Positions 1 through 60,900 of a DNA stretch of 64,000 bases are shown here, piece by piece (the stretch's first letter is position 1; each line of letters begins with the position of its first letter). The notes beneath the pieces are model-generated. The model saw only the letters and a program-made list of their open reading frames with translations, was not told the DNA's origin and made no database searches. The stretch is from Minisyncoccota bacterium (GTDB lineage: Bacteria; Patescibacteriota; Minisyncoccia; Phycocordibacterales; UBA2100). A program made the translations under genes and the position numbers. The DNA lies in assembly GCA_035708165.1 (NCBI GenBank), contig DASSSZ010000001.1, positions 165,814-229,813 of the forward strand, read 5' to 3'.

Positions 1-772
1 GAACCGCCCTTGGTGCTGTGATCCTTGCCGGCGCCTTCCACGGCTACATTCAGCGTACGCCACTTCGCGGGCCACTCCACCTTCCATGGCAGCTTGGCGC
101 GGCCGTCGAATGGCGTCGTCCGGCCCGTGTGCCCGCACCCCTTCGCCCACGCGACCATCTCCGGCTCGCAGCGGTACGTGACGTACTGCCCGTCCCAGCC
201 TGTCGCGCGCGTGGTGCCGACCTTGCCGCACTGCTCGCAGATGACGTTGATCGGATACCAATCGTCCGGGCGCTCCGCACCCGAGACTTCCTTGTAGATC
301 TGCCGGATGAGCTCAGCCTTGTCGAGGGCCTGCGCGATGACGCCATTCAGCTTCCCCTGCACGTAGAGCTCGCTCGCGCGGTAGAAGGTCGGATCGTAGC
401 CGGTATCCCGGATCACCTGCTCGAATTCCTGCCCGAAGTATTCGGCATAGTTGTCGAATCCAGGCTCAGGCGACGGCACCGCATTGAGCGGCTTGCCCAT
501 GTACGGCTCGTACGCGGCCTGATCGAGGTACGCCGGGAGCCCATCCATCGGATCGAAATCGTTGATCTCGTACATGAAGAGGACGGGCACGCCCGCCTCG
601 GCGAGCGCTTCCGCGGCCGCTCCGTGGATCCCCACGCCGCGCATGGAGCCCACGTGCACCCGGCCGGATGCCGTCTTCTCGTCGCGCACGATCAGGAGCT
701 CATCCGTCTCGAGATCTGCTGCACGCGCCTTCTTGATCTCCTCTACCGCCTTATCTACCCAGAGCATATAGC
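1..772 (-). CDS. lysK: Class I (archaeal-type) lysyl-tRNA synthetase, N-terminal ~257 codons; gene continues past the window start
   Basis: My own minus-strand translation from ATG at 772 reads MLWVDKAVEEIKKARA...SGRVHVGSMRG...DDWYPINVICEQCGK...YRCE..CGH...PFDGRAKLPWKVEWPAKWRTLNVAVEGAGKDHSTKGG. It matches class I LysRS hallmarks (HIGH-like motif, Zn-ribbon insertion, PWxVxWPxxW, GKDH). It is absent from the ORF track because the frame runs off the edge. The 275-aa plus-strand ORF 18..845 is its antisense. Confidence 0.65.
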
Positions 773-823
773 CTTCATCCTAGCAGAAAAACGCTTCCCG
801 TGCCGTCCCGCTCCGAGGCGGGT

Positions 824-861
824 AAAAAAGAAATGTACATTATAATGTACATTTCTTTTTT
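824..861. promoter_or_regulatory. 38-nt perfect AT-rich palindrome AAAAAAGAAATGTACATTATAATGTACATTTCTTTTTT. Reads as a hairpin plus U-tract terminator for greA, and a TATAAT -10/operator upstream of lysK.
   Basis: The sequence is exactly self-complementary. It carries a central TATAAT hexamer and is flanked by A6 and T6 runs. It is the only AT-rich stretch in a GC-rich intergenic region between greA (3' end) and lysK (5' end). Confidence 0.5.
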
Positions 862-891
862 CCGGCCGGGATACGCCAGCGCAGGATGCTG

Positions 892-1362
892 CTACTCAAC
901 CGAGACGATCTTGTACTTCTGCATGCCCTTGGGCGTCTCGAACTCGAAGGACTCGCCCTTCTTCTTGTTCATCAGCGCAGCGCCCATCGGCGAGAGGTGC
1001 GAGATCTTGCGCTCCTGCATGTTCGCCTCCGCCGAGCCGACGATCTCGTACACATGCTCTTCCTTCTCGCCAGTCTTCTGGATCTTCACCTTGCTGCCGA
1101 GCGAGACGGTCCCGCCCTTCTTCGGCTCGATGATGCGCGCATGCGCGAGCAGGCCCTCGATGGCGCGGATGCGCTCTTCGGTCGCCGCCTGCAGGTCGCG
1201 CGCCTCCTGGTACTCCGCGTTCTCGGAGAGGTCGCCGAGGCTGCGTGCGTACTCGAGCTGCTCTGCAATCTCGCGACGACGGGTCGTCTTCAGGATGTCG
1301 AGCTCACTGCGCAGCTCATCGAACTTTTCCTGGGTGAGATAGTTGTTATTGTCTTCGCCCAT
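892..1362 (-). CDS. greA: Transcription elongation factor GreA
   Basis: 156 aa. N-terminal coiled-coil (YLTQEKFDELRSELDIL...) and C-terminal FKBP-like domain (GSKVKIQ...EYEIVG), canonical GreA length. Confidence 0.9.
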   Translation of the reverse strand: MGEDNNNYLTQEKFDELRSELDILKTTRRREIAEQLEYARSLGDLSENAEYQEARDLQAATEERIRAIEGLLAHARIIEPKKGGTVSLGSKVKIQKTGEKEEHVYEIVGSAEANMQERKISHLSPMGAALMNKKKGESFEFETPKGMQKYKIVSVE

Positions 1363-1465
1363 AAGTCACTCGGGTTATTGATTGCGCATAATTGTACAGG
1401 CTCCCTGCAAAAGCACAATGTACCGCGTTATCCCCGTTTCCGGCCGCCTCAGACGCCATGCAAGA

Positions 1466-1492
1466 CAGAAGAACCCCGCAGGCGCGGGGTTC
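1466..1492 (-). terminator. Intrinsic terminator downstream of the cohesin gene
   Basis: GAACCCCGC-aggc-GCGGGGTTC 9-bp GC stem, with a U-rich tract on the minus-strand transcript (..UUCUUCUGUCUU). Confidence 0.45.
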
Positions 1493-1508
1493 TTCGGGAA
1501 GGGAGCGG

Positions 1509-2243
1509 CTAGGCCTTGCGACGGGAGAGCCAGTACCACGCTGCGAGAGCGATGATCACCAGGAGCGCGATGAGCGCCCATACCCATGCCGGGATGCTGA
1601 TGCCGGCAGCAGCCGCCGCGGCAGCCTCAAGGCTGCTCGTGGCCGTGCTGGTCGCGACCGCCGTGGTCGCAGCGCTCGCCTGCGACGCGCCGGAGGAGAC
1701 GCTGCGTGCGGGGACGGTGACCGGGCCGGCGATATTGTTCGACTGCGGCGCCGCGCCGATCCCCTGCTCAGCAGGCGTCTGCTCCGCGATCACGATGCGC
1801 GCCGTTCCCTGCGTACCTGTGAGCGTATCAACGGTGTTGGTATCGTACGCGATGGAATCGACCCTATCGACGGCGATCGTCGCCACGCCTGCCGCCTTCG
1901 CGGTGAAGGTGATGGTGCCGAAGGTCGCCTCGGCGCTCGTGCCGCTCGGGTAGCCGGCGGTCTTGATGATCTCGCCGCCGCCCATCTGGTCGTAGCCCGC
2001 CTGCGTCATGCCGACCCAGTTCGGCCCGAACGAGAAGGAGGTCGGGGTCAGGAGATCCGCCGGGTAGTCGATCGCCGCCTTCACGGCCGTGAGCGTCTTC
2101 CCTGCCGGGTCGATCGCGACCGTCACCGTGATCGTCTGGCCAGGCGTGACCGAGGTGGCCTGCGGGGCAAGCCCGATCGAGGAAGCCTGCGCGACGACCG
2201 GAAGCGCGAACGCGAGGAGCGAGAGAATGAATGCCTGTTTCAT
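1509..2243 (-). CDS. Membrane-anchored cohesin-domain protein (signal peptide, ~120-aa cohesin-like beta-sandwich, Ser/Ala/Thr linker, C-terminal TM helix + RRKA)
   Basis: N-terminal MKQAFILSLLAFALPVVAQA signal peptide. Pattern TVTVAIDPAGKTLTAVKAAIDYPADLL...GMTQ...GGEIIKTAGY...ATFGTITFTAKAAGVATIAV resembles type I cohesins. C-terminal IPAWVWALIALLVIIALAAWYWLSRRKA is a TM anchor. It lies 26 nt downstream of the dockerin-bearing giant ORF. Confidence 0.55.
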   Translation of the reverse strand: MKQAFILSLLAFALPVVAQASSIGLAPQATSVTPGQTITVTVAIDPAGKTLTAVKAAIDYPADLLTPTSFSFGPNWVGMTQAGYDQMGGGEIIKTAGYPSGTSAEATFGTITFTAKAAGVATIAVDRVDSIAYDTNTVDTLTGTQGTARIVIAEQTPAEQGIGAAPQSNNIAGPVTVPARSVSSGASQASAATTAVATSTATSSLEAAAAAAAGISIPAWVWALIALLVIIALAAWYWLSRRKA

Positions 2244-2269
2244 ATCAGTCAGTCAGGAGTGCTGGTAAG

Positions 2270-5200
2270 CTAGTTGGTCCAGTGGGCCATGAGCAGGTTG
2301 AGATCATCGATGTTGACCACGCCGTCATGGTTGAGGTCCGCCGAGCCGCCGTTGCCGCCGATCGCTGCCATGAGAAGCGCGAAGTCGAGGAAGTTCACGT
2401 GCCCGTCGTGGTTGAGGTCGCCAAGGAGCGAGAGAAGCCCGAAGATGCCGCCCCCGCCGACGATGCTCACGCTCGGCGTAGACGCCGCATCGATCGGGTG
2501 CACGACCTGCGCCGAGGAGCTCTGGTCATAGCCGGCTGCCGGCTGGTATGTCGCTGCGATCGTGATGCTGCCCGCCGTGCTCGTGAGCGAAGATGGGATG
2601 TCGCACGCGCCATCCGCGACCGGTGCCGAGCACCCGGCGCCGCCGTTCACGGAGACGTCTACGGTGCCGCTCGTCACGGTTGCCCCGGCGTCATCCGTCA
2701 CCTTCCACTCAACAGTCACCGGATCGCCCGCGGTGCTGGCGTTCGCTGAAAGGTCGCTCGCGTTCGTAATGGTGGTGTTCGTGCTGCTATCCGGCTCGAA
2801 GTCGACCGTCGTCTCCGTCGGGTTCATGCCGGACGTCTCGAACGTGAGGTTATCGACATCGCCGATGTAGCTCGAGCCGATGCTATTGTCCACCTTGAAG
2901 CCGGCAAGGCCATTGATCGTGAGGCCCGGGTACGCGGCGATGATAGTGCTCCACGAGCAGGTGCTCGCGGCAGTACAGCCGGAATCGGTCTCAAGCGTCG
3001 CATCCGTGAACCACCAGCCAGCGGCACTCGTCAGCGGATTCCATGTCTGCCAGCTGCCGAGCGCGGCGCCGGACGGCGTGTAGACGAGGCGGCCCTGGCC
3101 GGTTGCCGTCGAGGTCGTTGCGATATCCATGACGAGCATCGGGGTCAGCGCTACGTCGCCCGACTCGCCGTACGTCGAGTACGAGAGGCTGGTCAGGTCT
3201 GCGAGCGAGTTCCCGACGAAGCCGTCCGTGCCGAGAATCTCGGACTTACCGGCCGACTGCCCGAAGTGGGCGCTGCCGTTCCCTGCCGGCGCGGCGCCCG
3301 GGCCGCTGATGAAGCCTTCGAGGTTGTTGTCGATGCCGCCCGCGACGCTTGCGTCATTGAAGTAGAACCACTTGGACGGATCGCTCACGGCCGTGGCGAC
3401 GAGGTCGCCCGGGCGCAGCACGATGTTCGCAGTGGTCGTTGCCGTCGGCGTCGTACCGCCGGTGCCTGAGTTATCGACAGTCACCTTGACCACCGGACTC
3501 CAATCGCTCTCGTTACCTGCCGCATCAATCGCTTTCACGTGCAGGTAATACGTACCTGCGGGCGTGCCCGGAGTCGCGAGAGTCGTGTTCGTGATGTCAT
3601 TAACGGTTGCGATAGTGCTTGCGAATGAGCCATCTGCATTCGTCACGCCATCAAGCGAGGCTTCGTAGTCGTACGTGACCGGCGTGCCCGAATCGCTCGA
3701 ATCCGTCCAGCTAATCTGCTGCCAGCCCGCAGTCGTGGTCGCGCTGCCATCTGCAGGCGATGTGATAGTCGGCATTGCAGGCGCATGCGTATCGATGGTC
3801 ATGCTCCAGATAGAGCTCCAATCGCTCTGGTTGCCATCCGCATCAGTGGCCCGGACCTGCCAGTACCATGTGCCGTCTGGAGCGCCCGTCGAATGGATCG
3901 AGGGAGTCGTAAGCGTGCCAGAAGTCCACAGACCGGTCGTGAGCACGCCACCCGTCTCTGCCGGATTCATCGAGGAATGGAATACGTAGCTGAGCGGTGC
4001 CTTGCCTATCGAATCTGCCCACGTGAAGTAGAAGTCGTTCGTCGAGGTCGCAGCGCCATCACTCGGCGTCAGAAGCAGCGGTGCAGTCGGAATAGCAGGA
4101 ATCACGACATTCTGCACTGTGATGGTCGGCGAGCTGCCAGCAAAGTGATTGTTACCCGCCTTGTCGAAGATGTCTGCCTTGATCGTGTACGTACCATCCG
4201 CAAGACCTGAGACATCATAGCTAAATGTGCCAGAAGCAGCGTCCCACGTGGCCGGCTGATTATTGACGACATAGCCGCCAAATGTGCCATTGTTGAGCTT
4301 CGTTACATAGACATTCACATGGTCAACGCCCGAGAGATTGTCGGTCGCGGTACCGGTAATCGTGAATGTGCCTGTTTGCGTGCTGCTATTTACAGGCGCA
4401 GTAATCGAGCCATTCGGACGAGTGCGGTCGATGATCAGATCCTGCTGCGCGCCGCCACCGTAACCTGCGTTGTCGCTAGCGTGGATGCGGAGCGTGTAGG
4501 TGTGACCTTCGGTGAGGCTCTTCGTGTTGATCATGCACGAGGTAGTCGCGTTCTTGCTATCGGCGCTCGTGACGGTGCTCAGGCTTCCGCTGGTGCAACC
4601 CGCAACCCATGAGTTGCCATGCGTGACCGAGGGGTCGCGGACATCGAAGAGCACGGCCTTGAGGGCGACATTGTCGCTTGCCTCGCCAGCAACGCTGAAG
4701 TCGCTGTTCACGTATTTCGCCGGGGCCGGATCGAAGTGCGCCGTCGGGCCGTGCGTGTCATACGAGAGCGTAAACGGCGCAGAAAGCGGCGAGACAACAT
4801 TATTGCGATTGACTGCTTCGACCTGGAACGTGTATTTGCCCTGCTGCGAACCGAATGCTTCACCTGAGGCGATCCAGCTCCAATTATTTGCCCCCTGATA
4901 CGACAGCTTTGTCGAACCGTCAGGATAGGTTGTCAGAATGCGATAACCGGCAACAGCTATTGTCGGGACCTTCCAACCGAGCAGGAGATTATTTCCCGTC
5001 GTTGAGGCGATCTTGTTCAGTGTCGTGCCGTCAGCAATGTTTTGAGCGTCATTCTGGAATTTCGCGTAGAGACCGGTCGGTGTGTCCGGTGTAGGCACCA
5101 CGAACGAGGTGGCGACACTCACATTGTCGAAGAGGAAGCCGTTGCCAGCGTCAGCCGGATTGGCAGTGCCACGCGCCTGGAAGATGAGCCGGTCGATCGA

Positions 5201-7771
5201 AGGGAGCGTGTTCCCGTTGCCAGCCTGCTCCGGGTCGTTGCGGTAGTAATCCTCCCAGCTGCCGCCGGTGTGGACGAGCGTACCATCAATGTCGATTTTG
5301 ACGACATCATTGCCCACACCATCGTTGAAGTCCATGACGAACTTGACGGTGTGGGCCGTCAAACGGCTGAGTGCTGGAATGATTCCGCTTCCACCAGCGA
5401 TTTCGGTTTCATTCCATACCGCTGCCTGGCCGCTCGTCGGGTCCGTCGCGTCGTCGAAGAAGACATGGATGCCGTCGGACTCATCAACGAAGCGCAGGTA
5501 GCTCATGCGGCTGCCATTCGCGTCCGTCGGAGAGACGGAAAGCTCCATGCCCGGCTGCTCATCGAGCATCGTCGAGGCGATGTCGAACTGCGCCTCGAAG
5601 TGATTCATCGTCGCGCCCGAAGCTGTCTCCCCTGCCGGCGCTGCAGCCGGTGCAGAGAAGACCCAGTCGCCGAAGCTGCCGCTCGTCTTCTGATCCGAGA
5701 TGCGGAGCGCATTGCAGCCGAAGCTGGTGAAGCCGTAGACATTCGCGACGATCGCCTGGTCGTACGGGCCGGTCGCGCTCCAGCCATCCTGGCCGTTCAC
5801 GCTGCCGAGCGTATCGCCATCGAAGGTGCTGCTATTGCAGGCCGCAGGCGAGAGCAGGCTCGCGTAGGTGGGCCAGCTCGGCGCGCCCTGGCTGAAGTTC
5901 GAGTTCGTCACGCTCTCGGTGCCGTTCGTGCCCGTGACCGTGATGGTGACACTCTTGGGAGTCGTGAAGGTACTCCAGGCCGCCGGGTCGCTGGTCCAGT
6001 ACGAATCCGTCGCAGGAACGTACGTGCCTGCCTCGATGACGAACGGAGCGGTGAACTGGTACGGAGCTGTATTTCCGTCAATAAGATTGAAGAGGTCCTG
6101 CGTGCCATGCTTGATCGCGTGCGTACCATCGGCGCGCATCATGTCTACCGTGACCGCGCTTACCGTGCCGAAGTCCTTGGCATCGAAGCCGACACTCACG
6201 CCCTTATAGGTCGAATCATTGACCGTGTTGAAGTTCTCAGCGTTGAGGACGGATTTCGGTGCATCCGGCTCAAAATCATACGTCGTTGCTCCTGTTGATG
6301 TCCCAATCGTGAAATTATCCACGTTGCCATCGAATGCCTGCCCGTCCGCGCCATTCGTCCGCAGAATGAGCCTCCCGGAGATAGCAGCGTGGGGATAATC
6401 GGTGAGCAGCTCTGACCAGGTGCACGGATTGCTTTGTGTGCACAGGCTAGTAGCACCACCGCTCAGCTTGCTATGTGAGAACCACCAATTCCCCGTACCA
6501 GAACCTGCTGTGTCATCAAGCGTATTCCAAGTCTGCCATGTGCCCGTATCCACTGTCTGAGTGAAATAAGGCTCGTACGTGAGACGGCCCTGATAGCTCG
6601 TATCACCATCTGTCGTATCACTATCGACATCGAATCCTAGAGATGCAGCCTGTGCGGGGTCGCCACTCGCACGATATGTCGAGTACGAGAGGCTTGTGAT
6701 GTCACTCAAAGCTGTGCCTGCGAACTGCGTTGTTGCAATTCCATATTTATCAGTCGTCGTCTTCGTCAGATGCACGCTTCCCGTCCCGGCGACTGGTGTC
6801 CCAGGCCCAGAGACGAAGCCGTGATCTGCCGTATCGCTTTGTACAGCATCAGCCTGATCGTCATACAGATTCCACTGATTCAAATCACTGGGTGTAACTG
6901 TCACAACCGTGGGGGTGGCAGACGGTGAGATGAAGCCATATGTAGATTCAAGCACCGGGCTTGCATTTCCCGCCGCGTCGTATGCAATCGCATATATGCT
7001 CTCGGCAGAACTTACGGAAATGGGACCGGTATACAGCGTACCGATAGTCTTTCCATTCGCCGCAGACAGTGCACCATTATTGATGGTGTAATAGATGGAT
7101 GGTTCTGCTCCGCTATTATCTCTGCTAGTAAGGGTTACGGTCTGTGCCACAGAATAGAATCCATGATTCGGAGTCGCCACGGGCTCGGTCGGAGCCGTTG
7201 TGTCCCGCGCAGCGACGACATTCGATGCGTCCTTGGTCGGCGTGTCGGTCAAGCCCCAGGTCGAGCCGCCATCGGTGGTTCGATAGGCGGACTGACTCGT
7301 TGCTGGCGTCGGAGCATAGTCATAATCAATCGTCGAAGTCGATGCGGAGCCATATGCGACGGCGTTGATGGTCGTTGCGGTCCCATCAGCAAGAATGATT
7401 TCATCTCCATCATCATTGAGCTTATTGCTTGCGTCTGCCGTAACAAATCCATGTGCAGGGATGGATGATGCCGAGAGCGTGAAGGAGTTCCCGGCAATAT
7501 CTTTGAGAGTCCATGAGCTCAGGTCAATGTCCGATGCGGTCGTGTTGTAGAGCTCGACCCAATCAGAAGAACCATTATCGGATGAGAACTCATTGATAAC
7601 GACATCGCCGGTCGTTGCGGCGATCGCCGAAGCCGGCACGACTGCGAGGGGTGCGAACGAGCTCGCGATCATCGCGGTGATCGTGATGACGCTCGCCGAC
7701 TTGCGTGCGAGGCGGCCGAGCGCGCGGCGCGTACGGAAATGGAAGAAACGCAGGAATGAAGATGTATTCAT
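2270..7771 (-). CDS. Giant (1833 aa) secreted surface protein: signal peptide, lamin-tail domain, Ig/FN3-like domains, two copies of a ~175-aa unknown module, C-terminal type I dockerin
   Basis: Start set at MNTSSFLRFF (ATG 7771, AAGGA 7 nt upstream). The track ORF starts 14 codons earlier at 7813 without an SD. LTD motif VVINEFSSDNGSSDWVELYN..WTLKD. The C-terminus GDLNHDGHVNFLDFALLMAAIGG..ADLNHDGVVNIDDLNLLMAHW is a duplicated Ca-binding dockerin repeat. Thr/Ser/Gly-rich throughout. Confidence 0.8.
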   Translation of the reverse strand: MNTSSFLRFFHFRTRRALGRLARKSASVITITAMIASSFAPLAVVPASAIAATTGDVVINEFSSDNGSSDWVELYNTTASDIDLSSWTLKDIAGNSFTLSASSIPAHGFVTADASNKLNDDGDEIILADGTATTINAVAYGSASTSTIDYDYAPTPATSQSAYRTTDGGSTWGLTDTPTKDASNVVAARDTTAPTEPVATPNHGFYSVAQTVTLTSRDNSGAEPSIYYTINNGALSAANGKTIGTLYTGPISVSSAESIYAIAYDAAGNASPVLESTYGFISPSATPTVVTVTPSDLNQWNLYDDQADAVQSDTADHGFVSGPGTPVAGTGSVHLTKTTTDKYGIATTQFAGTALSDITSLSYSTYRASGDPAQAASLGFDVDSDTTDGDTSYQGRLTYEPYFTQTVDTGTWQTWNTLDDTAGSGTGNWWFSHSKLSGGATSLCTQSNPCTWSELLTDYPHAAISGRLILRTNGADGQAFDGNVDNFTIGTSTGATTYDFEPDAPKSVLNAENFNTVNDSTYKGVSVGFDAKDFGTVSAVTVDMMRADGTHAIKHGTQDLFNLIDGNTAPYQFTAPFVIEAGTYVPATDSYWTSDPAAWSTFTTPKSVTITVTGTNGTESVTNSNFSQGAPSWPTYASLLSPAACNSSTFDGDTLGSVNGQDGWSATGPYDQAIVANVYGFTSFGCNALRISDQKTSGSFGDWVFSAPAAAPAGETASGATMNHFEAQFDIASTMLDEQPGMELSVSPTDANGSRMSYLRFVDESDGIHVFFDDATDPTSGQAAVWNETEIAGGSGIIPALSRLTAHTVKFVMDFNDGVGNDVVKIDIDGTLVHTGGSWEDYYRNDPEQAGNGNTLPSIDRLIFQARGTANPADAGNGFLFDNVSVATSFVVPTPDTPTGLYAKFQNDAQNIADGTTLNKIASTTGNNLLLGWKVPTIAVAGYRILTTYPDGSTKLSYQGANNWSWIASGEAFGSQQGKYTFQVEAVNRNNVVSPLSAPFTLSYDTHGPTAHFDPAPAKYVNSDFSVAGEASDNVALKAVLFDVRDPSVTHGNSWVAGCTSGSLSTVTSADSKNATTSCMINTKSLTEGHTYTLRIHASDNAGYGGGAQQDLIIDRTRPNGSITAPVNSSTQTGTFTITGTATDNLSGVDHVNVYVTKLNNGTFGGYVVNNQPATWDAASGTFSYDVSGLADGTYTIKADIFDKAGNNHFAGSSPTITVQNVVIPAIPTAPLLLTPSDGAATSTNDFYFTWADSIGKAPLSYVFHSSMNPAETGGVLTTGLWTSGTLTTPSIHSTGAPDGTWYWQVRATDADGNQSDWSSIWSMTIDTHAPAMPTITSPADGSATTTAGWQQISWTDSSDSGTPVTYDYEASLDGVTNADGSFASTIATVNDITNTTLATPGTPAGTYYLHVKAIDAAGNESDWSPVVKVTVDNSGTGGTTPTATTTANIVLRPGDLVATAVSDPSKWFYFNDASVAGGIDNNLEGFISGPGAAPAGNGSAHFGQSAGKSEILGTDGFVGNSLADLTSLSYSTYGESGDVALTPMLVMDIATTSTATGQGRLVYTPSGAALGSWQTWNPLTSAAGWWFTDATLETDSGCTAASTCSWSTIIAAYPGLTINGLAGFKVDNSIGSSYIGDVDNLTFETSGMNPTETTVDFEPDSSTNTTITNASDLSANASTAGDPVTVEWKVTDDAGATVTSGTVDVSVNGGAGCSAPVADGACDIPSSLTSTAGSITIAATYQPAAGYDQSSSAQVVHPIDAASTPSVSIVGGGGIFGLLSLLGDLNHDGHVNFLDFALLMAAIGGNGGSADLNHDGVVNIDDLNLLMAHWTN

Positions 7772-8044
7772 GATTGAATCCTTATAGATAAGATTTTCTG
7801 ATGATGCGCTCATCGCATCGCCAGGCTTGGACGCACCTTAGTAGGAATTACATGAGTCTTACATGAAGGCGGGACCCCATGTACGCTTCACGTAGCCTGG
7901 CCTAATACAACTACCGCCAGCTAGCTGCGTCAATGTTTCTAATCGGCTAGCGCACGGACCTATCGGACAGTAAAGAGGGGCCCGCCGAGGTGTCCGTTAC
8001 TGCACCTCGACGTATAGCCATATTATGTGCTGTACGAGGTATAG

Positions 8045-9859
8045 CTAGTCTGCCACCTCCTCGGTGCTGCTGGCCTCACCCACGTACTGCGGCTCCGTCG
8101 CCGCGAGCCACTGGAAGAACGGGTACATGGCAGGCGCTGCCCCGGAGAGCGTACCTGCGGGCGCATGCTCGAGCACTACCGCGAATGCGTAGCGCGGGTG
8201 ATCGTACGGCCAGAAGCCGACTGCCCATGCGTTCATCCACTCGTTATGCAAGCCGAGCTGCGCGGTACCCGTCTTCCCTGCCACTTGCACCCACGGATTG
8301 TTCATCGAGGCTGCAGCGCCGCGCGGGTCGGTCACCGAGAGCCGCATGCCTTCGCGCGCGATCTCCATGTTCTGAGGCGGGATATCGAGGTGCGAGCTCT
8401 GGATCGGCGCATCCTTGGTGATCTGCGGCGTGAGCAAGGTGCCGCCGTTGGCGAGCGCGGCGACCGCGCGTACCGCCTGCAGGGGCGTCACCTGCGTGCC
8501 GTATTGGCCGATCGAGGAGATGTAGGTGTCGCCGAGCCGCCACGGTTGCCCATCGAAATTCGCCGCCTTCCACGCCGGGCTCGAGAGCGTTCCGGCGAGC
8601 TCGTTCGGGAAGATGCTGCCGGTCGTCGAGCCGAATCCGAACATATGGAGGTACTTATTGATATTGTCGATGCCCATGCCCGGCTGATCCTTGTAGCCGC
8701 CGCCGATCTCATAGAAGAAGACGTCCGAGGAGTACGCGATGCCATGGCGGACGTCCATCCATCCCTGGTAGCGCCAGTCGTGATAGACATAGGGGTGCGT
8801 GGGATCGTACGGATTATCCACCGAGATGGAGCCATCAGAGTAGATCTGCGTCGTGGGCGTGATGACGCCTTCCGTGAGAGCGCCGGTCGCGATGAACGGC
8901 TTCACGATCGAACCCGGCGTGTAGGCGCCGGCGACCGCGCGGAAGAGGAAGGGGCTTTCCGGGTCCGCGTTATAGCTCGCGATCGCGGCTGCGTCGCCGT
9001 CGGTCATGGCCTGCGGTGCGTACTCGGGGAAGCTCGTGATCGCGACGATCTTGCCAGTGCGCACGTCCATGATGACCGCTGCCCCGCCTTCGAAGCCGTT
9101 ATCCTGCGCATGCTGGCTGAGGATCTGGAAGAGTTTGGATTGCATCTTGGCATCGATGCTGAGCGTGACATCGGCGCCATCCACCGGCGGCTCCACGATA
9201 TGCTGGCGCGTGACGTTCCCGAGCGCGTCCTTCTCGAGGATCTCGCTGCCGTTCGTTCCGGAGAGCGCGCCATCGAAGAGCTTCTCCGCGCCCGCGACGC
9301 CCGAGAGCGCCGTGCTCCACCAGTTGCCGCTCGCGTCCTGCTGCGGGTAGCGCACGTAGCCGAGCAGGAGCCCGAGGCCGGGCAGGCTCGTATACCGGCG
9401 GCTCGCGTACGGAGTGGACGTCCCCTGCGCCGGCTCGTTCCAGGCGAGCTCGACGCCGTTCGTATCGTAGATGACGCCGCGCTGCGCGAAGATGAGCGAG
9501 CGCGAGAGCGAATTGTTCGCCGCTGCCGCCGCGTACTGCGCGCCCTCCACGACCTCGAGGTCGTATGCGCGGAAACCGAAGATGCCCACGACGAGCACGA
9601 AGAGGACGCCTGCCGTGACGATGCCGAAGCGCGAGACCGGGCGCTCTACCCTGCCCTCGAGCTGCGCCGGATCGAGCGATGGAAGGTTCGAGGAATCGAG
9701 GAAGATCTCATCCGGTTCGATCTCGACCTCGGCCGTGCCGGTGCGCAGGACCGCCGAGCGTCCCCGCCTGTTCCGCCATTGCCGCGCGAACCAATTCATC
9801 AGGCGCATTCTACCATTTCGCCTTCCTGCCTGCCTGAGGCAAAAATAACGGCCGAGCAC
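8045..9859 (-). CDS. mrdA: Penicillin-binding protein 2 (class B transpeptidase); probable true start at MRLMNWFAR (9808)
   Basis: N-terminal TM, PBP dimerisation region, SIVKPF (SxxK), SSD, KTGTA motifs. Located downstream of mreBCD. Confidence 0.85.
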   Translation of the reverse strand: MLGRYFCLRQAGRRNGRMRLMNWFARQWRNRRGRSAVLRTGTAEVEIEPDEIFLDSSNLPSLDPAQLEGRVERPVSRFGIVTAGVLFVLVVGIFGFRAYDLEVVEGAQYAAAAANNSLSRSLIFAQRGVIYDTNGVELAWNEPAQGTSTPYASRRYTSLPGLGLLLGYVRYPQQDASGNWWSTALSGVAGAEKLFDGALSGTNGSEILEKDALGNVTRQHIVEPPVDGADVTLSIDAKMQSKLFQILSQHAQDNGFEGGAAVIMDVRTGKIVAITSFPEYAPQAMTDGDAAAIASYNADPESPFLFRAVAGAYTPGSIVKPFIATGALTEGVITPTTQIYSDGSISVDNPYDPTHPYVYHDWRYQGWMDVRHGIAYSSDVFFYEIGGGYKDQPGMGIDNINKYLHMFGFGSTTGSIFPNELAGTLSSPAWKAANFDGQPWRLGDTYISSIGQYGTQVTPLQAVRAVAALANGGTLLTPQITKDAPIQSSHLDIPPQNMEIAREGMRLSVTDPRGAAASMNNPWVQVAGKTGTAQLGLHNEWMNAWAVGFWPYDHPRYAFAVVLEHAPAGTLSGAAPAMYPFFQWLAATEPQYVGEASSTEEVAD

Positions 9860-10070
9860 TGCTGCCCGGCCGGGAATGGGATCACCTCCTTTCGTGTGAA
9901 TCGGAAGGTGTTCTCACTCGCTCTCTCCTGAACTGTTGCGGATAGCAGCTCACAGGCTGCACCCTCAGCATACTCTCGAGCGCATGCCCCGCAAGCGCGA
10001 GGGCGTGCATAAGTGAAGCCGGGCAGCAGCGCTGCCCGGCTTGATCGGATCTGGAATCGGAAAAGGATGC

Positions 10071-10430
10071 TCAGGCGACCTGCAGCTCCCGGATCCGCGC
10101 ATACCCCATGAGCAGTGCACGCCAGGCGGCCGTGAGCTGCTGGTACTCCGCCATGACAGCCGGATCCGTATTCTTCCGACGATCGCGTACGCGGGCGAAG
10201 GCCATGAAGCCATGCTCCGCGGAGCGCATGTGGGACCGATCGCCCCCGACGAAGAGGCTATGATGCCCCGTCTTGTAGGACCCGAACAGCAGGCCGAGCG
10301 TGCACGAATCGTCGTATGCGATATTGAGCGAGCGGACCCGCGCACAGAGCCTGTCCATCGATCCGGGGTACTGCTCCTCCAAGAGGTGCGCGCCGCGCGC
10401 GACACGCGACAGCACATCATTCGTTTGCAT
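10071..10430 (-). CDS. Hypothetical cytoplasmic protein (~120 aa) inserted between mreD-like gene and mrdA
   Basis: Protein-like composition: MQTNDVLSRVARGAHLLEEQYPGSMDRL...AEYQQLTAAWRALLMGYARIRELQVA. No family recognised. The overlapping 160-aa ORF 9965..10447 in another frame is Arg/Ser junk. Confidence 0.35.
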   Translation of the reverse strand: MQTNDVLSRVARGAHLLEEQYPGSMDRLCARVRSLNIAYDDSCTLGLLFGSYKTGHHSLFVGGDRSHMRSAEHGFMAFARVRDRRKNTDPAVMAEYQQLTAAWRALLMGYARIRELQVA

Positions 10431-10532
10431 CCTGCTCTCCTTGGCAAGCTCCGCGCGCCCTGCGCGCGCGGACTTCCTATACCATACGGCCTTTCGGGCC
10501 GCCGTCAACGCCCACCCTCGGAGCGCCGCGGA

Positions 10533-57900: not shown

Positions 57901-60900
57901 CTACTGCGCCGTGAGGGCCTGCAGGGTGGTGGCGTCGAGGGCGGTATTCCAGAACGTGACGCGGGTGATGTAGCCGTCATAGTACGGCCCGTTCGCGGAT
58001 TCCATGCCGACGTTGTAATACGTTTGCGACTTCGTGGCCGCGCCGATCGTCAGGACCGATCCGCCGTTCCCGACGAAGTGCGTCTCCGGCGTGCTGTCGC
58101 GCGAGAGGCCGACCGTAGTCGTGGACTGCGCCGTGCCGCTGCCGAGCGCGATACTGTGCGCCGATCCGTAGATGCAGCCGCCGCCTTCGCCTACCGTGGT
58201 CGGCGTGGGCAGGCCGAGGTAGCCACCGAACGTCGAGCACCCGATCAAAGGCGCGCCATTCCCGCTGACCCGCCCGGAACCCGTGCCCGTGACGAGGACG
58301 CTATAGTCCGACGAGTTCATGAGCGTGGTGATGGCCGGTATGAGCTTCGTGTGATCCTTGCCGCGGGAGGCGGCAGCGGATGTCGTCACCACCGGCGACG
58401 TAAGCGCATCGAACATGCTGCTGCCCGGGACCTCTTCCTGCGCGAAGTCCGCCGCGACCGAATCGCCGCTCGCGACGAGGCGGATGCCGATCGTCGGGTT
58501 CGCGCTCGTCGTATTGATCGAGACCCGGCGGTACGCGCCTGTCGTGACCCCCGCGGTGACATCGGTCCAGGTCGCGCCGCCGTCCATCGTAAGGTCGATC
58601 TCGCCGGTGCCCGAGAGGCGCTTCAAGTAGACGGAGAAGACGCGGGTGCGGCTGGTCGAATCGGTGACCGCTTGCATCAGGGTGGCATTCGCGGCGGTCG
58701 CCGTGAGCGAACCCGCGGCGTTAGCCGACCCGTCGGCGCCGGTCTGGTCCATCGCGACGCTCATGCCGCTCGCCGTCCACACGGCGTTCGTGAAGGTGCG
58801 CGACCAGAGCGCCTGGTTCGTGTTGTCAGCCTCCACGAGGATCCCCTTATCGGTGATGCGCGGCACATCCGTGGCGAACGCGTGCAGCGTGCCCGCGCCA
58901 TCGGCCGCGTACGCAGTGCCAGTGCGGGAGTAGCTATCGAAGAAGGCGTCCGGGGTCGTAACGCCGGTTGCTGCCGACCAGGCGCGGTCGTTCGCGAAAT
59001 CGATATCGATATACGCCCCCGATTCGACCCACCCGGGCAGCGAGGAAGCGGTGAACGTCTGATCCGTCGAGGTGGATGTGCGGCCGAAGTCGTCCGTCGA
59101 GATGACAGCGAAATGGTAGGTGGCGCCTGACGTAAGGCCCGAGAGCGTCACCTGGTGGGAGGTGGTCGTGGCGGTATCGAGCGCCGAGTACGTATCGTAC
59201 GAGGCGCTCGCGCCGTACGCGACGCGGGACGTCGCGCCGGTATTCGTGGTCCAGGTGATCGTCGCGCTCGTTTCGCCCGGCGTCCCCGACGAGATGGACG
59301 AGATGACCGGCGCCGCGTTGCTCACCATGACGGAAGCGCTCGTCGTCGCGTAGTTGCCGGACGTGTCCTCTGCCGTCACTGCGATGGTATGCGCGCCGTC
59401 CGTGACGCCGGTCGAGTCCCACGTGATCGAATACGGCGAGGCGGTCCCCGGCGTGCCGATCGGCGCGCCATCCACCGAGAATCGCAGGCTGGCGAGGCCG
59501 ACGTTATCGGACGCCGTCGCCGCGAGCGAGACGGATGCACCCGACACGACGCTGCCGGAAAGCGGCGCCGTGAGCGTTGCCGTCGGCTTGACGGTATCTA
59601 CGCCGCTCACGCCGCTCCCGCCGTCGAACCCCAGGTTATAGCCGGTACCGATCATCCCGTTCGGGATCGCCGTGCCGAAGTAGTCCTGCGTGCCGACCGA
59701 GATCGTCGAGGAACTCTGATGCAGGTCGAGGCCGGTACCGATCAAGGGCGAACCGCTCTGCAGCTTGAAGGAGGTGCCGCACGAGGATGAGTAGCCGCCG
59801 CAGATGGCATCCCACGTATCATCCACGAAGGCCGGGTCGCTCGTCGCCGCGCCCGTGTCGCCGCCGGGGATGAACGCCTGCCATGAGGCGAGCGACGTCT
59901 CGGCCGTGCCGCTCTTCGGGAGCCAGTACGGTGTGCCGCCACCGATCGAGAACCAGTCATTATCCTTGAAGAAGAGGCCCGACGGGAACGACGTGATGGG
60001 CGCGTACAGGTAGTGACTCACGCCGCTGCCATCCTTCTCAACGGCGAAGATGTTGTTCGCGATGAGGCCCGTCGTCGGCATGAAGTTCCCCGAGATCGCG
60101 TACGCGGTGCCCTTCGGGAGCGTATTCCCGTTCCAGATCGTATTGTTGTACATGTAGAAGGAGCCGCCGCTCGCCGTGCCGCCGAAGCCGATCGCGCCGT
60201 GCGAGCCGCTCTGCGCGGTGTTCGCGCCGTCGTTCACGGAGAGGTTGTAGCGCATCGTATTGTTGTACCAGGTCGAGGGCGACGTCATGAAGATGATCAT
60301 GCCCCCGAAGTTGTCGTGCGAGTAGTTGTACTGGATGGTGGAGTTCGTCACGCTGCCGTCGAGGTCGTACGAGATCCAGTCGCAGCCGCCGCTGTAGTTA
60401 ATAGGCTGCACGTGGTACACCTCGTTGTACTGGATGGTCACGTCGTTCGAGTTATAGGTCCAGATGCCGCCCGGGCCGCCGCAGACCGCGGAGTTCGCGC
60501 CGATGTCGTGCGCGACATTGTGCTGCAGGAGCCCGCCGTCTACGCCATTCGCCACGATGCCGCTCGCGATGCTGCTGGCGCGAGCGCCGATATCGTAGAT
60601 GGTGTTGTACTCGTACGTGACGTCATGGATGTTCTTGCCGTTACCGAAGCCGTAGATGCCGTTGAGGTCATCGCTCGTCGCGCCGTCCACGCCGTGGAGC
60701 GTGGAATGGCCGACGTAGATGTTCTCGAACCTGCCGCCCGGGTAGCCGGTGATGAAGACTTCCGCGCTGCCCGAGATGCTCGTATGGCCCGCGTCCGGAT
60801 AGAAGCCGCCGATATCCATGTTCTCGATCCTGATATCGGAGACATTCGTGCTGCTGTTCGGCGCGTGCACCCAGATGCCATCGGATGCGCCGCCGCTGTT

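What the first reader, a model, noticed from the sequence alone, without database searches (positions are those of the whole stretch)
1509..7771. Dockerin-tipped giant adhesin immediately followed by a membrane-anchored cohesin protein: a self-contained two-gene surface-anchoring module
The 1833-aa secreted protein ends in a textbook duplicated dockerin segment (DLNHDGHVNFLDFALL...DLNHDGVVNIDDLNLL). Its N-terminus carries a lamin-tail domain (VVINEFSSDNGSSDWVELYN). The next gene, 26 nt downstream on the same strand, encodes signal peptide, a cohesin-like beta-sandwich, a Ser/Ala linker and a C-terminal TM helix with an RRKA stop-transfer. This is the logic of cellulosome scaffoldin anchoring, reused here for a non-enzymatic giant adhesin in a genome with no cellulase context. 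By inference, the cohesin protein tethers the adhesin to the cell membrane, which could matter for host or substrate attachment in a small-genome symbiont.
Basis: partly seen in the sequence, partly recalled or inferred. Interest (0 to 1): 0.6.

Follow-up and report, generated by a model that had tools for sequence, protein, structure and literature searches.

The report
Membrane-anchored cohesin with dockerin-tipped surface protein
Two neighbouring genes of an ultra-small (Patescibacteria) bacterium encode a giant secreted surface protein ending in a dockerin "plug" and a small membrane protein carrying the matching cohesin "socket". The same gene pair, with interchangeable cargo, recurs across this whole bacterial group.

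Summary
On the minus strand, a 1833-aa (or 1847-aa) secreted protein (2270..7771/7813) carries an LTD and ends in a duplicated F-hand dockerin. Both pass Pfam's gathering scores. A 244-aa protein (1509..2243) starts 26 nt downstream. It has a signal peptide, a cohesin domain (above Pfam's gathering score; in the AF2 model, the top 42 PDB matches are all cohesins), a disordered Ser/Thr/Ala stalk of about 65 aa, a C-terminal TM helix and an RRKA tail.

The small protein belongs to a large Patescibacteria family (569 clusters at E<=1e-30) with a fixed architecture. In 42 of 44 species-level loci with enough upstream DNA, a gene ending in this dockerin type lies directly upstream. The two exceptions have broken cohesin genes. 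Cargo varies from about 130 to about 1850 aa and includes CHB_HEX_C_1, LTD, Ig-like and subtilase domains, but no cellulases. Dockerin and cohesin subtypes change together while cargo is swapped.

Physical binding was not shown, and no multimer model could be run. I read this as a non-cellulosomal cohesin-dockerin surface-display cassette, a new variant of a known kind. I found no description of it for Patescibacteria in the searchable literature.

The parts
2270..7771 (-). Gene for the giant dockerin-tipped surface protein (1833 aa; an in-frame ATG at 7813 would give 1847 aa)
   Evidence: ORF. AAGGA lies 8 nt upstream of the 7771 ATG. The protein is identical to NCBI 'lamin tail domain-containing protein [Candidatus Paceibacterota bacterium]' (P0166).
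7625..7771 (-). Signal peptide (aa 1-49): basic n-region RTRRALGRLARK, hydrophobic core, PASA|IA cleavage-like site
   Evidence: Read from the sequence. All 40+ cargo proteins of the family start with a comparable signal peptide. The cleavage site is inferred.
7349..7621 (-). Lamin-tail domain (LTD), aa 51-141
   Evidence: Pfam PF00932, 61.5 bits against a gathering score of 34.3.
6953..7171 (-). CHB_HEX_C_1 / Fn3_assoc Ig-like domain, aa 201-273
   Evidence: Pfam PF13290, 33.7 bits against a gathering score of 22. It is the commonest cargo domain in the family (11 of 43).
6254..6919 (-). Unnamed beta-jelly-roll domain, copy 1 (aa 285-506), CBM/lectin-like
5087..6253 (-). Unassigned region (aa 507-895) that contains no recognisable catalytic domain
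   Evidence: No Pfam hit even at E<=10. Residues 640-895 are shared with P0167-P0171, P0180 and P0185.
3452..5086 (-). Array of Ig-like/fn3 domains (aa about 896-1440), including Big_7 at aa 1119-1199 (4175..4417)
   Evidence: Pfam Big_7, 31.4 bits against a gathering score of 24.1. Sub-threshold Big_13, Y_Y_Y, fn3 and Big_3_2 hits.
2792..3430 (-). Beta-jelly-roll domain, copy 2 (aa 1448-1660)
   Evidence: Aligns with copy 1 and its homologues.
2504..2749 (-). Big_3_5-like Ig domain (aa 1675-1756)
   Evidence: Pfam PF16640, 30.4 bits, below the gathering score of 35.5.
2273..2419 (-). Dockerin: two 22-residue F-hand repeats (aa 1785-1806 and 1812-1833) joined by NGGSA, at the extreme C-terminus and preceded by a GGGG linker
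   Evidence: Pfam Dockerin_1, 28.8 bits against a gathering score of 22.9. PDB sequence hits are only to dockerins (2y3n_B, E 2e-4). Calcium-ligand positions 1, 3, 5, 9 and 12 are D-N-D-N-D in both repeats. The family-specific HMM scores 81 bits.
2244..2269 (-). 26-nt intergenic spacer with no terminator, implying co-transcription
   Evidence: Sequence. Comparable spacing is seen across 40+ related loci: the dockerin match ends 7-222 nt before the cohesin match begins.
1509..2243 (-). Gene for the membrane-anchored single-cohesin protein (244 aa)
   Evidence: ORF. Identical to NCBI 'cohesin domain-containing protein [Candidatus Paceibacterota bacterium]' (P0001).
2184..2243 (-). Sec signal peptide (aa 1-20, AQA|SS)
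   Evidence: Read from the sequence. 151 of 161 family members have an N-terminal hydrophobic segment.
1788..2183 (-). Cohesin beta-sandwich (aa 21-152); family signature Q-x-G-Y-D ... K-T-A-G-Y-P-x-G
   Evidence: Pfam Cohesin, 29.9 bits against a gathering score of 24.1. AF2 pLDDT >90. The top 42 Foldseek PDB hits are all cohesins: 6kgf_C at E 4.5e-10 and TM 0.74, and the non-cellulosomal A. fulgidus cohesin 2xdh at TM 0.77. Invariant residues are listed.
1596..1787 (-). Disordered Ser/Thr/Ala/Pro-rich stalk (aa 153-216)
   Evidence: AF2 pLDDT <50 for 170-214. The family's median stalk is about 62 aa, range 36-96.
1512..1595 (-). C-terminal transmembrane helix (aa 217-239, IPAWVWALIALLVIIALAAWYWL) and cytoplasmic basic tail SRRKA
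   Evidence: AF2 helix at 219-243. 152 of 161 family members have a C-terminal TM segment and a mean of 3.7 K/R in the last 10 residues. No LPXTG motif is visible in the printed C-termini or the position table.
1468..1495 (-). Terminator-like hairpin (12-bp perfect stem GAAGAACCCCGC/GCGGGGUUCUUC, 4-nt loop), 13 nt after the stop codon and followed by UGUCUUG
   Evidence: Sequence. RNA fold gives -29.2 kcal/mol, z = -3.1. The consensus terminator scan did not report it because the U-tract is weak.

Best explanation
This is a two-gene, co-transcribed surface-display cassette built on a non-cellulosomal cohesin-dockerin pair.

Proposed mechanism:
1. Both proteins are exported by Sec (inferred from the signal peptides).
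2. The small protein stays in the cytoplasmic membrane as a type-I protein. Its C-terminal TM helix and basic RRKA tail hold it there.
3. Its disordered Ser/Thr/Ala stalk of about 65 residues holds a single type-I-like cohesin outside the membrane. The stalk is long enough to cross the cell wall (inferred).
4. The giant protein folds outside the cell. Its C-terminal calcium-loaded double F-hand dockerin plugs non-covalently into that cohesin, so the protein is tethered by its C-terminus.
5. The N-terminal LTD, the Ig-like/fn3 domains and the two CBM-like jelly-rolls then point outward, where they can bind a glycan or cell-surface ligand.

The cassette is one member of a Patescibacteria-wide family. 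The cohesin anchor and the dockerin handle are inherited and diverge together, while the cargo in front of the dockerin is exchanged.

Shown: domain identities, the cohesin fold, the architecture, invariant synteny and concordant subtype divergence. Inferred: physical binding, calcium dependence, topology and the adhesin role.
For: Domain identity:
- Dockerin_1 and Cohesin score above Pfam's gathering thresholds.
- The dockerin matches solved dockerins only.
- The AF2 model of the small protein is a cohesin beta-sandwich with no helices, followed by a disordered stalk and a TM helix. The top 42 PDB matches are all cohesins.

Operon structure:
- The gap between the genes is 26 nt with no terminator. 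A strong hairpin follows the second gene.

Synteny:
- A family-specific dockerin HMM finds a dockerin-ending ORF directly upstream on the same strand in 41 of 44 GTDB species loci that have at least 300 nt of upstream sequence.
- A 42nd locus is masked by Ns, but the dockerin tail is visible. The last two loci carry frameshifted or truncated cohesin genes.
- Only 3 other dockerin-bearing ORFs occur in about 685 kb of flanks, and one of them has its own cohesin gene downstream.
- Metagenome loci show the same arrangement.
- Reverse test: two LTD...dockerin homologues found with the giant protein as query are each followed by a cohesin-TM gene 21 and 33 nt downstream.

Family architecture:
- 569 clusters at E<=1e-30. 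The best 150 are nearly all 230-275 aa and match over their full length.
- 152 of 161 have a C-terminal TM segment and 151 of 161 an N-terminal signal. None has LPXTG.

Co-divergence:
- Dockerin and cohesin identities correlate (Spearman 0.41; 0 of 2000 Mantel permutations reach it).
- The dockerin 'DFV' subtype always occurs with the cohesin beta3 '(A/T)E(K/Q)' subtype: 9 of 9 against 0 of 31.
- 22 of 33 locus pairs with similar dockerin and cohesin have unrelated cargo.
- One locus, L053, has two tandem modules in which the dockerin (DDYDF in both repeats) and the cohesin (FTFGAGIPSG instead of IKTAGYPGG) have diverged together.

Calcium ligands:
- Conserved across the family and in the window protein.

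Precedent:
- An adjacent single-cohesin/single-dockerin gene pair (ClcC/ClcD) forms a heterodimer experimentally (PMC13487519).
Against: - No direct evidence of binding.
- The co-divergence statistics are confounded by shared ancestry. The DFV/AEK association may be a single evolutionary event.
- The window dockerin departs from the family consensus at near-invariant positions: W20 to I in repeat 1, and F13 to L and L/F11 to D in repeat 2. Its binding mode may therefore differ, or be weaker.
- There is no clear Shine-Dalgarno sequence before the small gene.
- The promoter and terminator consensus scans are not above the shuffled background.
- The ligand of the giant protein is unknown, and 390 aa of it are unassigned.
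Confidence: 0.78

Rival explanations
1. The two proteins are co-expressed surface or secreted proteins that do not bind each other. The dockerin acts as a calcium-binding module that targets something else, such as a wall polymer, a host surface or another cohesin elsewhere in the genome. The cohesin-like protein is an independent Ig-like surface protein.
For: - Binding was not tested.
- Only 64 kb of the genome was available, so other cohesins or dockerins may exist outside the window.
- An essential dockerin protein in the Saccharibacterium Southlakia (SEML1_0315) has no adjacent cohesin gene, so dockerins in this phylum can work without a neighbouring cohesin.
Against: - The immediate adjacency holds in 42 of 44 diverse species while the cargo is swapped.
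- Dockerin and cohesin subtypes diverge concordantly, including two divergent modules side by side in one locus.
- Both reverse-direction synteny tests were positive.
- The only other dockerin-ending ORF in the flanks has its own cohesin gene downstream; the two remaining extra dockerin-like matches are internal to their ORFs.
Confidence: 0.1
2. The cohesin protein binds the dockerin only transiently. It would act as a membrane-tethered export, folding or hand-over factor, or as a release regulator. The cargo would end up elsewhere: on the S-layer, on the host cell or in the medium.
For: - A 1:1 gene pairing is also typical of chaperone-substrate pairs.
- The most common cargo in the family is a small protein of about 210 aa, often itself preceded by a large Ig-like protein with no dockerin. 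This hints at further assembly steps.
Against: - Solved cohesin-dockerin pairs are stable structural connectors (established knowledge; the fold matches are to such complexes).
- The long disordered stalk with a TM anchor, conserved in more than 150 representatives, suits a spacer and anchor better than a chaperone.
Confidence: 0.07
3. The C-terminal hydrophobic segment plus basic tail of the cohesin protein is a cleavable sorting signal of the sortase/exosortase kind. The cohesin would then be covalently attached to the wall or a lipid rather than held by a TM helix.
For: - Hydrophobic helix plus basic tail is also the layout of sortase signals.
- Many family members share a juxtamembrane motif, either W-x-W or LAAIGxxxTLGTGN.
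Against: - No LPXTG, PEP-CTERM or PGF-CTERM-like motif precedes the helix in the window protein. None stands out in the printed C-termini or in the position table built from 152 tails.
- The juxtamembrane motifs are not universal: W-x-W occurs in 41 of 161.
Confidence: 0.05

Closest known systems
Cellulosomal anchoring scaffoldins, e.g. Clostridium thermocellum SdbA/OlpB (SLH-anchored) and Ruminococcus flavefaciens ScaE (sortase-anchored; PDB 2zf9)
   Same: A cell-bound protein carries a cohesin that captures the C-terminal duplicated F-hand dockerin of a secreted protein. The cohesin fold is the same (including 2zf9 among the hits).
   Different: - The anchor is a C-terminal TM helix after a disordered stalk, not SLH repeats or LPXTG.
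- There is a single cohesin and no multi-cohesin scaffoldin.
- The cargo is not a carbohydrate-active enzyme.
- The pairing is one gene to one gene in cis.
- The dockerin lacks the Ser-Thr recognition pair, with F-L and I-D at positions 10-11.
ClcC/ClcD minimal cohesin-dockerin pair of Cellulosilyticum lentocellum (PMC13487519)
   Same: One cohesin gene and one dockerin gene lie about 40 bp apart in one operon, and the products form a heterodimer experimentally. This is the closest precedent for a two-gene system.
   Different: - ClcC is a free CBM3-X2-cohesin scaffoldin without a membrane anchor, and ClcD is a GH5 cellulase.
- It is a Firmicute cellulolytic system.
- In the window, the cohesin protein is only an anchor and the cargo is a non-enzymatic multi-domain surface protein.
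- The window arrangement is conserved across hundreds of Patescibacteria lineages.
Non-cellulosomal cohesin and dockerin modules (Peer et al. 2009, cited in PMC9012536 and PMC10066038; Archaeoglobus fulgidus cohesin 2xdh; Clostridium perfringens cohesins 2jh2, 2vo8 and 2w1n; ANME archaea)
   Same: Cohesin and dockerin are used outside cellulose degradation, typically as single copies with no large scaffoldin. The model matches 2xdh at TM 0.77 and 2jh2 at TM 0.74-0.79. A proposed role is attaching proteins to the cell exterior.
   Different: I found no description of a conserved operon of a dockerin cargo gene followed by a TM-anchored single-cohesin gene, and none for Patescibacteria.
Dockerin-domain envelope protein SEML1_0315 of Southlakia epibionticum (Saccharibacteria), essential in Tn-seq (PMC10633639)
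   Same: A large Ig-domain-rich dockerin-bearing envelope protein in a Patescibacterium, proposed to target host glycans or promote adhesion.
   Different: There is no adjacent cohesin gene. Its neighbours are a tRNA gene and a convergently oriented hydrolase. No partner was proposed.
PG_binding_1-anchored giant surface proteins of Patescibacteria, including window 57901..63987
   Same: The same kinds of passenger domains occur (Big_7, Ig-like, LamG/jelly-roll). P0167-P0174 share the jelly-roll domain at 50-74% identity.
   Different: These proteins attach directly through peptidoglycan-binding domains, not through a dockerin and a separate cohesin anchor.

Membership tests
Cohesin domain (Pfam PF00963) | Sequence match to the family HMM above the curated threshold | tested here: met
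   29.9 bits against a gathering score of 24.1, E 7.3e-7, covering profile positions 6-136 of 139.
Cohesin domain (Pfam PF00963) | Nine-stranded flattened beta-sandwich (jelly-roll) fold superposable on solved cohesins | tested here: met
   AF2 pLDDT >90 over aa 21-152, all-beta. The top 42 Foldseek PDB hits are cohesins of types I, II and III; best E 4.5e-10, target TM 0.74-0.79.
Cohesin domain (Pfam PF00963) | Binds a dockerin | not testable with these tools
The indirect support is invariant synteny with a dockerin gene and concordant subtype divergence.
Dockerin type I (Pfam PF00404) | Sequence match to the family HMM above the curated threshold | tested here: met
   28.8 bits against a gathering score of 22.9. 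31 of 43 cargo proteins of the family also match at E<=1e-3. phmmer against the PDB hits only dockerins.
Dockerin type I (Pfam PF00404) | Two tandem ~22-residue F-hand repeats with calcium ligands at positions 1, 3, 5, 9 and 12 | tested here: met
   Both repeats read D-x-N-x-D-G-x-V-N-x-x-D. These positions are 80-100% conserved in 40 family dockerins.
Dockerin type I (Pfam PF00404) | Ser/Thr recognition pair at positions 10-11 (C. thermocellum-type specificity) | tested here: not met
   The window protein has F-L and I-D; the family consensus is I/V-L/F. This defines a specificity subtype, not the domain family.
Dockerin type I (Pfam PF00404) | Calcium-dependent folding and binding | not testable with these tools
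   This needs biochemistry.
GC-type dockerin (NCBIfam NF041540) | HMM match above the cutoff | tested here: not met
   17.5 bits against a cutoff of 29.
Cellulosome (scaffoldin-based multi-enzyme complex) | Dockerin-bearing carbohydrate-active enzymes as cargo | tested here: not met
   No GH, PL or CE catalytic family appears among the listed families in the Pfam scan of 43 cargo proteins (25 of 34 families are shown). Cargo domains are CHB_HEX_C_1, LTD, Ig-like, Peptidase_S8 and BNR. None was found in 10 other window proteins.
Cellulosome (scaffoldin-based multi-enzyme complex) | Scaffoldin with multiple cohesins | tested here: not met
   One cohesin per protein. The best 150 family representatives are almost all 230-275 aa and match end to end.
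Cellulosome (scaffoldin-based multi-enzyme complex) | Cell anchoring through SLH modules or a sortase LPXTG signal | tested here: not met
   Pfam finds no SLH. No LPXTG is present; the anchor is a TM helix with a basic tail.
Lamin tail domain (Pfam PF00932) | HMM match above the curated threshold | tested here: met
   61.5 bits against a gathering score of 34.3, aa 51-141.
Patescibacteria 'dockerin cargo + cohesin-TM anchor' cassette (defined here) | A small protein of about 230-275 aa with signal peptide, single cohesin carrying QxGYD...KTAGYPxG, S/T/A/P stalk, C-terminal TM helix and basic tail; encoded directly downstream of a gene ending in the D-x-N-x-D-G-x-V-D-I-L-D-F-N-x-L-M-x-N-W dockerin | tested here: met
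   The window protein aligns end to end with the family and scores 175 bits on the family cohesin HMM. The upstream dockerin scores 81 bits on the family dockerin HMM.

The most novel reading that the evidence does not exclude
Patescibacteria (CPR) possess a phylum-wide, previously undescribed 'plug-and-display' system. A dedicated membrane stalk carries one cohesin and is always encoded next to its own dockerin-tipped cargo. The dockerin/cohesin unit co-evolves into orthogonal specificities, seen as two divergent modules side by side in one genome. The cargo module is exchanged laterally: within the window gene, GC3 is 0.50-0.61 in the N-terminal third against 0.85-0.88 at the dockerin end. 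If so, this cassette would be a general mechanism by which these wall-bearing, genome-reduced episymbionts renew and diversify the adhesins and enzymes they present to hosts.
Probability: 0.45. Interest if true: 0.7.

Novelty: new variant of a known kind. Interest (0 to 1): 0.58.

Why it matters
How ultra-small Patescibacteria attach to host cells is largely unknown beyond type IV pili. This cassette provides a concrete, testable mechanism for displaying surface proteins:

- It gives a defined protein-protein pair of about 135 aa plus about 55 aa to test in vitro.
- It gives a simple genomic rule for listing surface-displayed cargo in thousands of uncultivated genomes: any gene ending in this dockerin, directly upstream of a cohesin-TM gene.
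- It suggests that cargo is swapped on a constant handle.
- It extends cohesin-dockerin biology to a TM-anchored, one-to-one, non-enzymatic format.
- It supplies candidate orthogonal cohesin-dockerin pairs for protein engineering.

Tried and rejected
- **Complex model.** I built 31 paired cohesin-(GGGGS)6-dockerin chains to obtain an interface model. No complex model was obtained.
- **Apparent natural fusion in L038.** One ORF seemed to hold both a dockerin and a cohesin. This is an artefact of an N-masked run across the junction.
- **The three apparent synteny exceptions**:
  - L034 is masked by Ns, with the dockerin tail still visible.
  - L058 has a frameshifted cohesin gene.
  - L059 has a truncated cohesin gene.
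- **Natural cohesin+dockerin fusions among family representatives.** The longer members (P0099, P0138, P0151) have only longer stalks or Cys-rich repeats.
- **Southlakia SEML1_0315 (dockerin-bearing, essential).** I checked it for an adjacent cohesin gene and found none.
- **PDB search with the cohesin-family sequence profile.** It gave only weak 36-residue matches to phage tail Ig-like domains. I rejected these as local Ig-like similarity; the fold search gave cohesins.
- **Self-BLAST of the giant protein.** It did not detect the internal repeat. The repeat emerged only through shared homologues.
- **Promoter/terminator consensus scan.** Not above the shuffled background. The hairpin after the small gene was found by eye and by folding.
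- **Rfam on 1..10000.** No hits.
- **Pfam on the unassigned segments aa 507-900.** No hits.
- **Sortase-type sorting signal.** Considered and rejected: there is no LPXTG or similar motif.
- **P0191.** This beta-helix protein with internal dockerin-like repeats, from a non-Patescibacteria MAG, has no downstream cohesin gene and no C-terminal family dockerin. It is not a member.

Full report
**1. What is there**

Both genes lie on the minus strand.

The large ORF runs 2270..7813 (1847 aa). I use the 1833-aa numbering throughout.

The small ORF is 1509..2243 (244 aa). The gap between the genes is 26 nt, with no terminator. A perfect 12-bp hairpin (1468..1495) begins 13 nt after the small gene's stop codon. 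It folds at -29.2 kcal/mol, z = -3.1. The two genes therefore look like one transcription unit that ends after the small gene.

The cassette sits between the mreB-mreC-mreD-PBP2 cluster and greA, all on the same strand.

The identical proteins exist in NCBI as 'lamin tail domain-containing protein' and 'cohesin domain-containing protein' of a Candidatus Paceibacterota MAG on a 302-kb contig. Paceibacterota is a Patescibacteria/CPR phylum, listed as Minisyncoccota in the current NCBI taxonomy.

**2. Domain identities**

Pfam places three domains above their gathering thresholds:

| Domain | Residues | Bits | Gathering score |
|---|---|---|---|
| LTD | 51-141 (giant) | 61.5 | 34.3 |
| Dockerin_1 | 1783-1828 (giant) | 28.8 | 22.9 |
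| Cohesin | 28-147 (small) | 29.9 | 24.1 |

The giant protein also has CHB_HEX_C_1 (201-273) and Big_7 (1119-1199) above threshold, plus several sub-threshold Ig/fn3 matches.

The dockerin is the extreme C-terminus. It consists of two 22-residue F-hand repeats (1785-1806 and 1812-1833) joined by NGGSA and preceded by a GGGG linker. D-N-D-N-D occupies calcium-ligand positions 1, 3, 5, 9 and 12 in both repeats. By sequence, the giant protein matches solved structures only in this region, and only dockerins.

An AF2 model of the small protein, built on a 21-sequence alignment, has mean pLDDT 80.9. It shows:
- an all-beta sandwich at 21-152, with pLDDT above 90;
- a disordered segment at about 160-214;
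- a helix at 219-243.

In a Foldseek search of the PDB, the first 42 matches are all cohesins. The best is 6kgf_C (E 4.5e-10, TM 0.74). The hits include the non-cellulosomal Archaeoglobus cohesin 2xdh (TM 0.77).

The N-terminus is a Sec signal peptide (AQA|SS). The C-terminus is a TM helix (IPAWVWALIALLVIIALAAWYWL) followed by SRRKA.

**3. The pair belongs to a large, conserved cassette**

The small protein's relatives are all about 230-270 aa and share its architecture.

A profile search of 1.84 billion representative proteins finds 569 clusters at E<=1e-30 and 1276 at E<=1e-10. The best 150 are almost all 230-275 aa and match end to end. Of 161 members examined:
- 152 have a C-terminal TM segment.
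- 151 have an N-terminal hydrophobic signal.
- The last ten residues hold a mean of 3.7 K/R.
- The stalk is 36-96 aa, median about 62.
- No LPXTG-type motif stands out in the tails.

Scanning one genome per GTDB species gave 50 loci, nearly all labelled Patescibacteria. The labels include Paceibacterota, Jorgensen-, Azam-, Wolfe-, Nealson-, Vogel-, Taylor-, Kaiser- and Magasanikbacteria, and MAGs labelled Saccharibacteria.

I built an HMM from six dockerin C-termini and searched all six-frame ORFs of these loci:
- In 41 of the 44 loci with at least 300 nt of upstream sequence, a dockerin-ending ORF lies directly upstream on the same strand. The dockerin match ends 7-222 nt before the cohesin match begins.
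- Of the three exceptions, one is masked by Ns with the dockerin tail still visible, and two have a frameshifted or truncated cohesin gene.
- Only three other ORFs with dockerin matches occur in about 685 kb of flanking DNA. One of them (L053 13114-16077) has its own cohesin gene downstream.

Six metagenome loci looked up independently show the same arrangement.

The test also works in reverse. Two LTD...dockerin homologues (P0179, P0170), found using the giant protein as query, are followed 21 and 33 nt downstream by cohesin-TM genes.

**4. Cargo is variable; the dockerin/cohesin unit is not**

All cargo proteins have signal peptides and carry the dockerin within 0-7 residues of the C-terminus, 0-4 in all but one weak match. 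They range from about 130 aa to the 1833-1847 aa of the window protein, which is the largest seen. The 35-aa remnant in L031 looks truncated.

Pfam on 43 cargo proteins gives:
- Dockerin_1 in 31
- CHB_HEX_C_1 in 11
- LTD in 4
- Peptidase_S8 in 2
- various Ig-like, BNR and FG-GAP domains
- no glycoside hydrolase, lyase or esterase

Evidence that dockerin and cohesin diverge together (except where noted):
- Their pairwise identities across 38 loci correlate (Spearman 0.41; 0 of 2000 Mantel permutations reach this value).
- 22 of the 33 locus pairs with similar dockerin and cohesin have unrelated cargo bodies.
- The dockerin subtype with Val after the D-F of both helices always occurs with a Glu-containing cohesin beta3 motif, (A/T)E(K/Q): 9 of 9, against 0 of 31 for the Asn subtype.
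- In L053, two modules lie side by side, and both the dockerin and the cohesin signatures have changed together.

These patterns are what co-evolving binding partners would show. They are confounded by shared ancestry, so they support binding without proving it.

The most conserved cohesin block is QxGYD...KTAGYPxG. By strand counting in the model it forms the beta5-beta6 hairpin. Together with beta3, this lies in the 8-3-6-5 sheet that binds dockerins in solved type-I complexes. That placement is inference.

**5. The giant protein**

It is a mosaic. Relatives share only segments covering 6-37% of the query, at up to 74% identity.

The most widely shared segment is an unnamed domain of about 215 aa that is present twice (aa 285-506 and 1448-1660). 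Its AF2 model is confident (pLDDT 92.7). The fold is a beta-jelly-roll whose nearest solved structures are:

The similarity is distant, so glycan binding is plausible but not established.

Several close relatives (P0167-P0174) carry PG_binding_1 instead of a dockerin. The window itself encodes a second giant protein with PG_binding_1 (57901..63987). Dockerin-cohesin is therefore one of at least two ways this group anchors such proteins.

Third-position GC is 0.50-0.61 for aa 1-450. It is 0.85-0.88 for aa 1501-1833 and 0.87 for the cohesin gene. ORFs elsewhere in the window that pass a coding-composition filter mostly show about 0.8-0.9. This suggests that the N-terminal modules were imported and grafted onto a native dockerin end.

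No catalytic domain was detected. Residues 507-895 remain unassigned.

**6. Mechanism**

The best-supported reading is that both proteins are exported by Sec. The small protein remains in the membrane as a type-I protein and holds one cohesin on a disordered stalk of about 65 residues. The giant protein's calcium-loaded dockerin binds that cohesin, tethering the protein by its C-terminus. The LTD, Ig-like and jelly-roll domains point outward as a probable adhesin.

- Shown: domain identities, the cohesin fold, the architecture, operon-like spacing, near-invariant synteny and concordant divergence.
- Inferred: binding, calcium dependence, topology and ligand.

The window dockerin and its closest relatives (L001, L062, L063) deviate from the family consensus at a few otherwise near-invariant helix positions. 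In the same clade the cohesin has a two-residue loop deletion. This is consistent with a clade-specific interface.

**7. Comparison with what is known**

It works like a cellulosomal anchoring scaffoldin, but it is not a cellulosome. It has no CAZyme cargo, a single cohesin, and no SLH or sortase anchor. All three features were tested and not met.

The nearest precedents:
- **ClcC/ClcD of Cellulosilyticum lentocellum** (PMC13487519). This adjacent gene pair forms a heterodimer experimentally. There, however, the cohesin protein is a free CBM3 scaffoldin and the cargo is a cellulase.
- **Non-cellulosomal cohesin/dockerin modules in general** (Peer et al. 2009, as cited in PMC9012536 and PMC10066038; ANME archaea).

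In Patescibacteria, the literature I could search mentions only an essential dockerin protein in Southlakia, with no partner proposed (PMC10633639). Searches combining dockerin or cohesin with Patescibacteria, CPR, Parcubacteria or Saccharibacteria returned nothing that describes this cassette. Paywalled literature was not searched.

**8. Verdict**

- It is a new variant of a known kind: a TM-anchored, single-cohesin, one-to-one display cassette with swappable cargo, widespread in Patescibacteria.
- Interest is moderate to high. It gives a directly testable handle on how these episymbionts present surface proteins, but the underlying interaction module is well known.

Noticed in passing
window 2270-7771 (minus strand): The giant gene is compositionally mosaic. 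GC3 is 0.50-0.61 for aa 1-450 (6422-7771) and 0.85-0.88 for aa 1501-1833 (2270-3271). The adjacent cohesin gene is 0.87, and most other filtered ORFs in the window lie at about 0.8-0.9. This suggests that laterally acquired N-terminal modules were fused to a native dockerin-bearing 3' end.
   Followed up: partly
window 57901-63987 (minus strand): A second giant surface protein (2028-aa ORF) carries two PG_binding_1 domains, Laminin_G_3 and Big_7. It uses a different wall-anchoring strategy in the same genome. Relatives of the dockerin-tipped protein (P0167-P0174) also carry PG_binding_1 instead of a dockerin.
   Followed up: partly
window 6254-6919 and 2792-3430 (minus strand): An unnamed domain of about 215 aa with no Pfam model is present twice. 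Its AF2 model is confident (pLDDT 92.7) and shows a beta-jelly-roll distantly similar to CBMs, PL7 lyases and lectins. The domain is shared at up to 74% identity with more than 50 large surface proteins, including beta-helix and cohesin-containing ones. It is a candidate new domain family.
   Followed up: partly
L053 9307-10777 and 13114-16925: Two dockerin-cohesin modules lie in tandem in one Parcubacteria genome. The second has a divergent dockerin (DDYDF in both repeats) and a divergent cohesin (FTFGAGIPSG instead of IKTAGYPGG), which suggests orthogonal specificities. The complete Nealsonbacteria genome CP179889.1 also has two modules (L032, L035), but they are nearly identical.
   Followed up: partly
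L004 6801-10729; L009 1885-8735: When the dockerin cargo is the small CHB_HEX_C_1 protein of about 210 aa, the gene just upstream is a large Ig-like/HYR/MBG/YDG surface protein (about 810-1820 aa) without a dockerin. This may be a three-component assembly in which the small protein acts as an adaptor.
   Followed up: no
C-termini of family members P0001-P0165: Semi-conserved juxtamembrane motifs lie just before the TM helix. W-x-W occurs in 41 of 161 members, including the window protein (PAWVWAL). Others carry 'LAAIGxxxTLGTGN'. Their function is unknown, and they do not match any sorting signal I know of.
   Followed up: no
L044, L046, L061: Three loci come from MAGs labelled Gammaproteobacteria or Victivallales. 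Their contigs are short (4-8 kb). The L046 cargo N-terminus closely resembles that of a Patescibacteria locus (L041), so these are probably mis-binned Patescibacteria contigs.
   Followed up: no
L031 9760-9960; L027 7902-9986; L058; L059: Some cassettes are decaying. Examples are a truncated cargo with only a dockerin remnant (L031), a dockerin with a degenerate second repeat (L027), and frameshifted or truncated cohesin genes that lack an upstream dockerin gene (L058, L059).
   Followed up: partly
window 8045-12632 (minus strand): The cassette is inserted between a PBP2-mreD-mreC-mreB cell-shape cluster and greA (892-1362). In relatives the pair sits in unrelated contexts, so it moves as a unit.
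   Followed up: no
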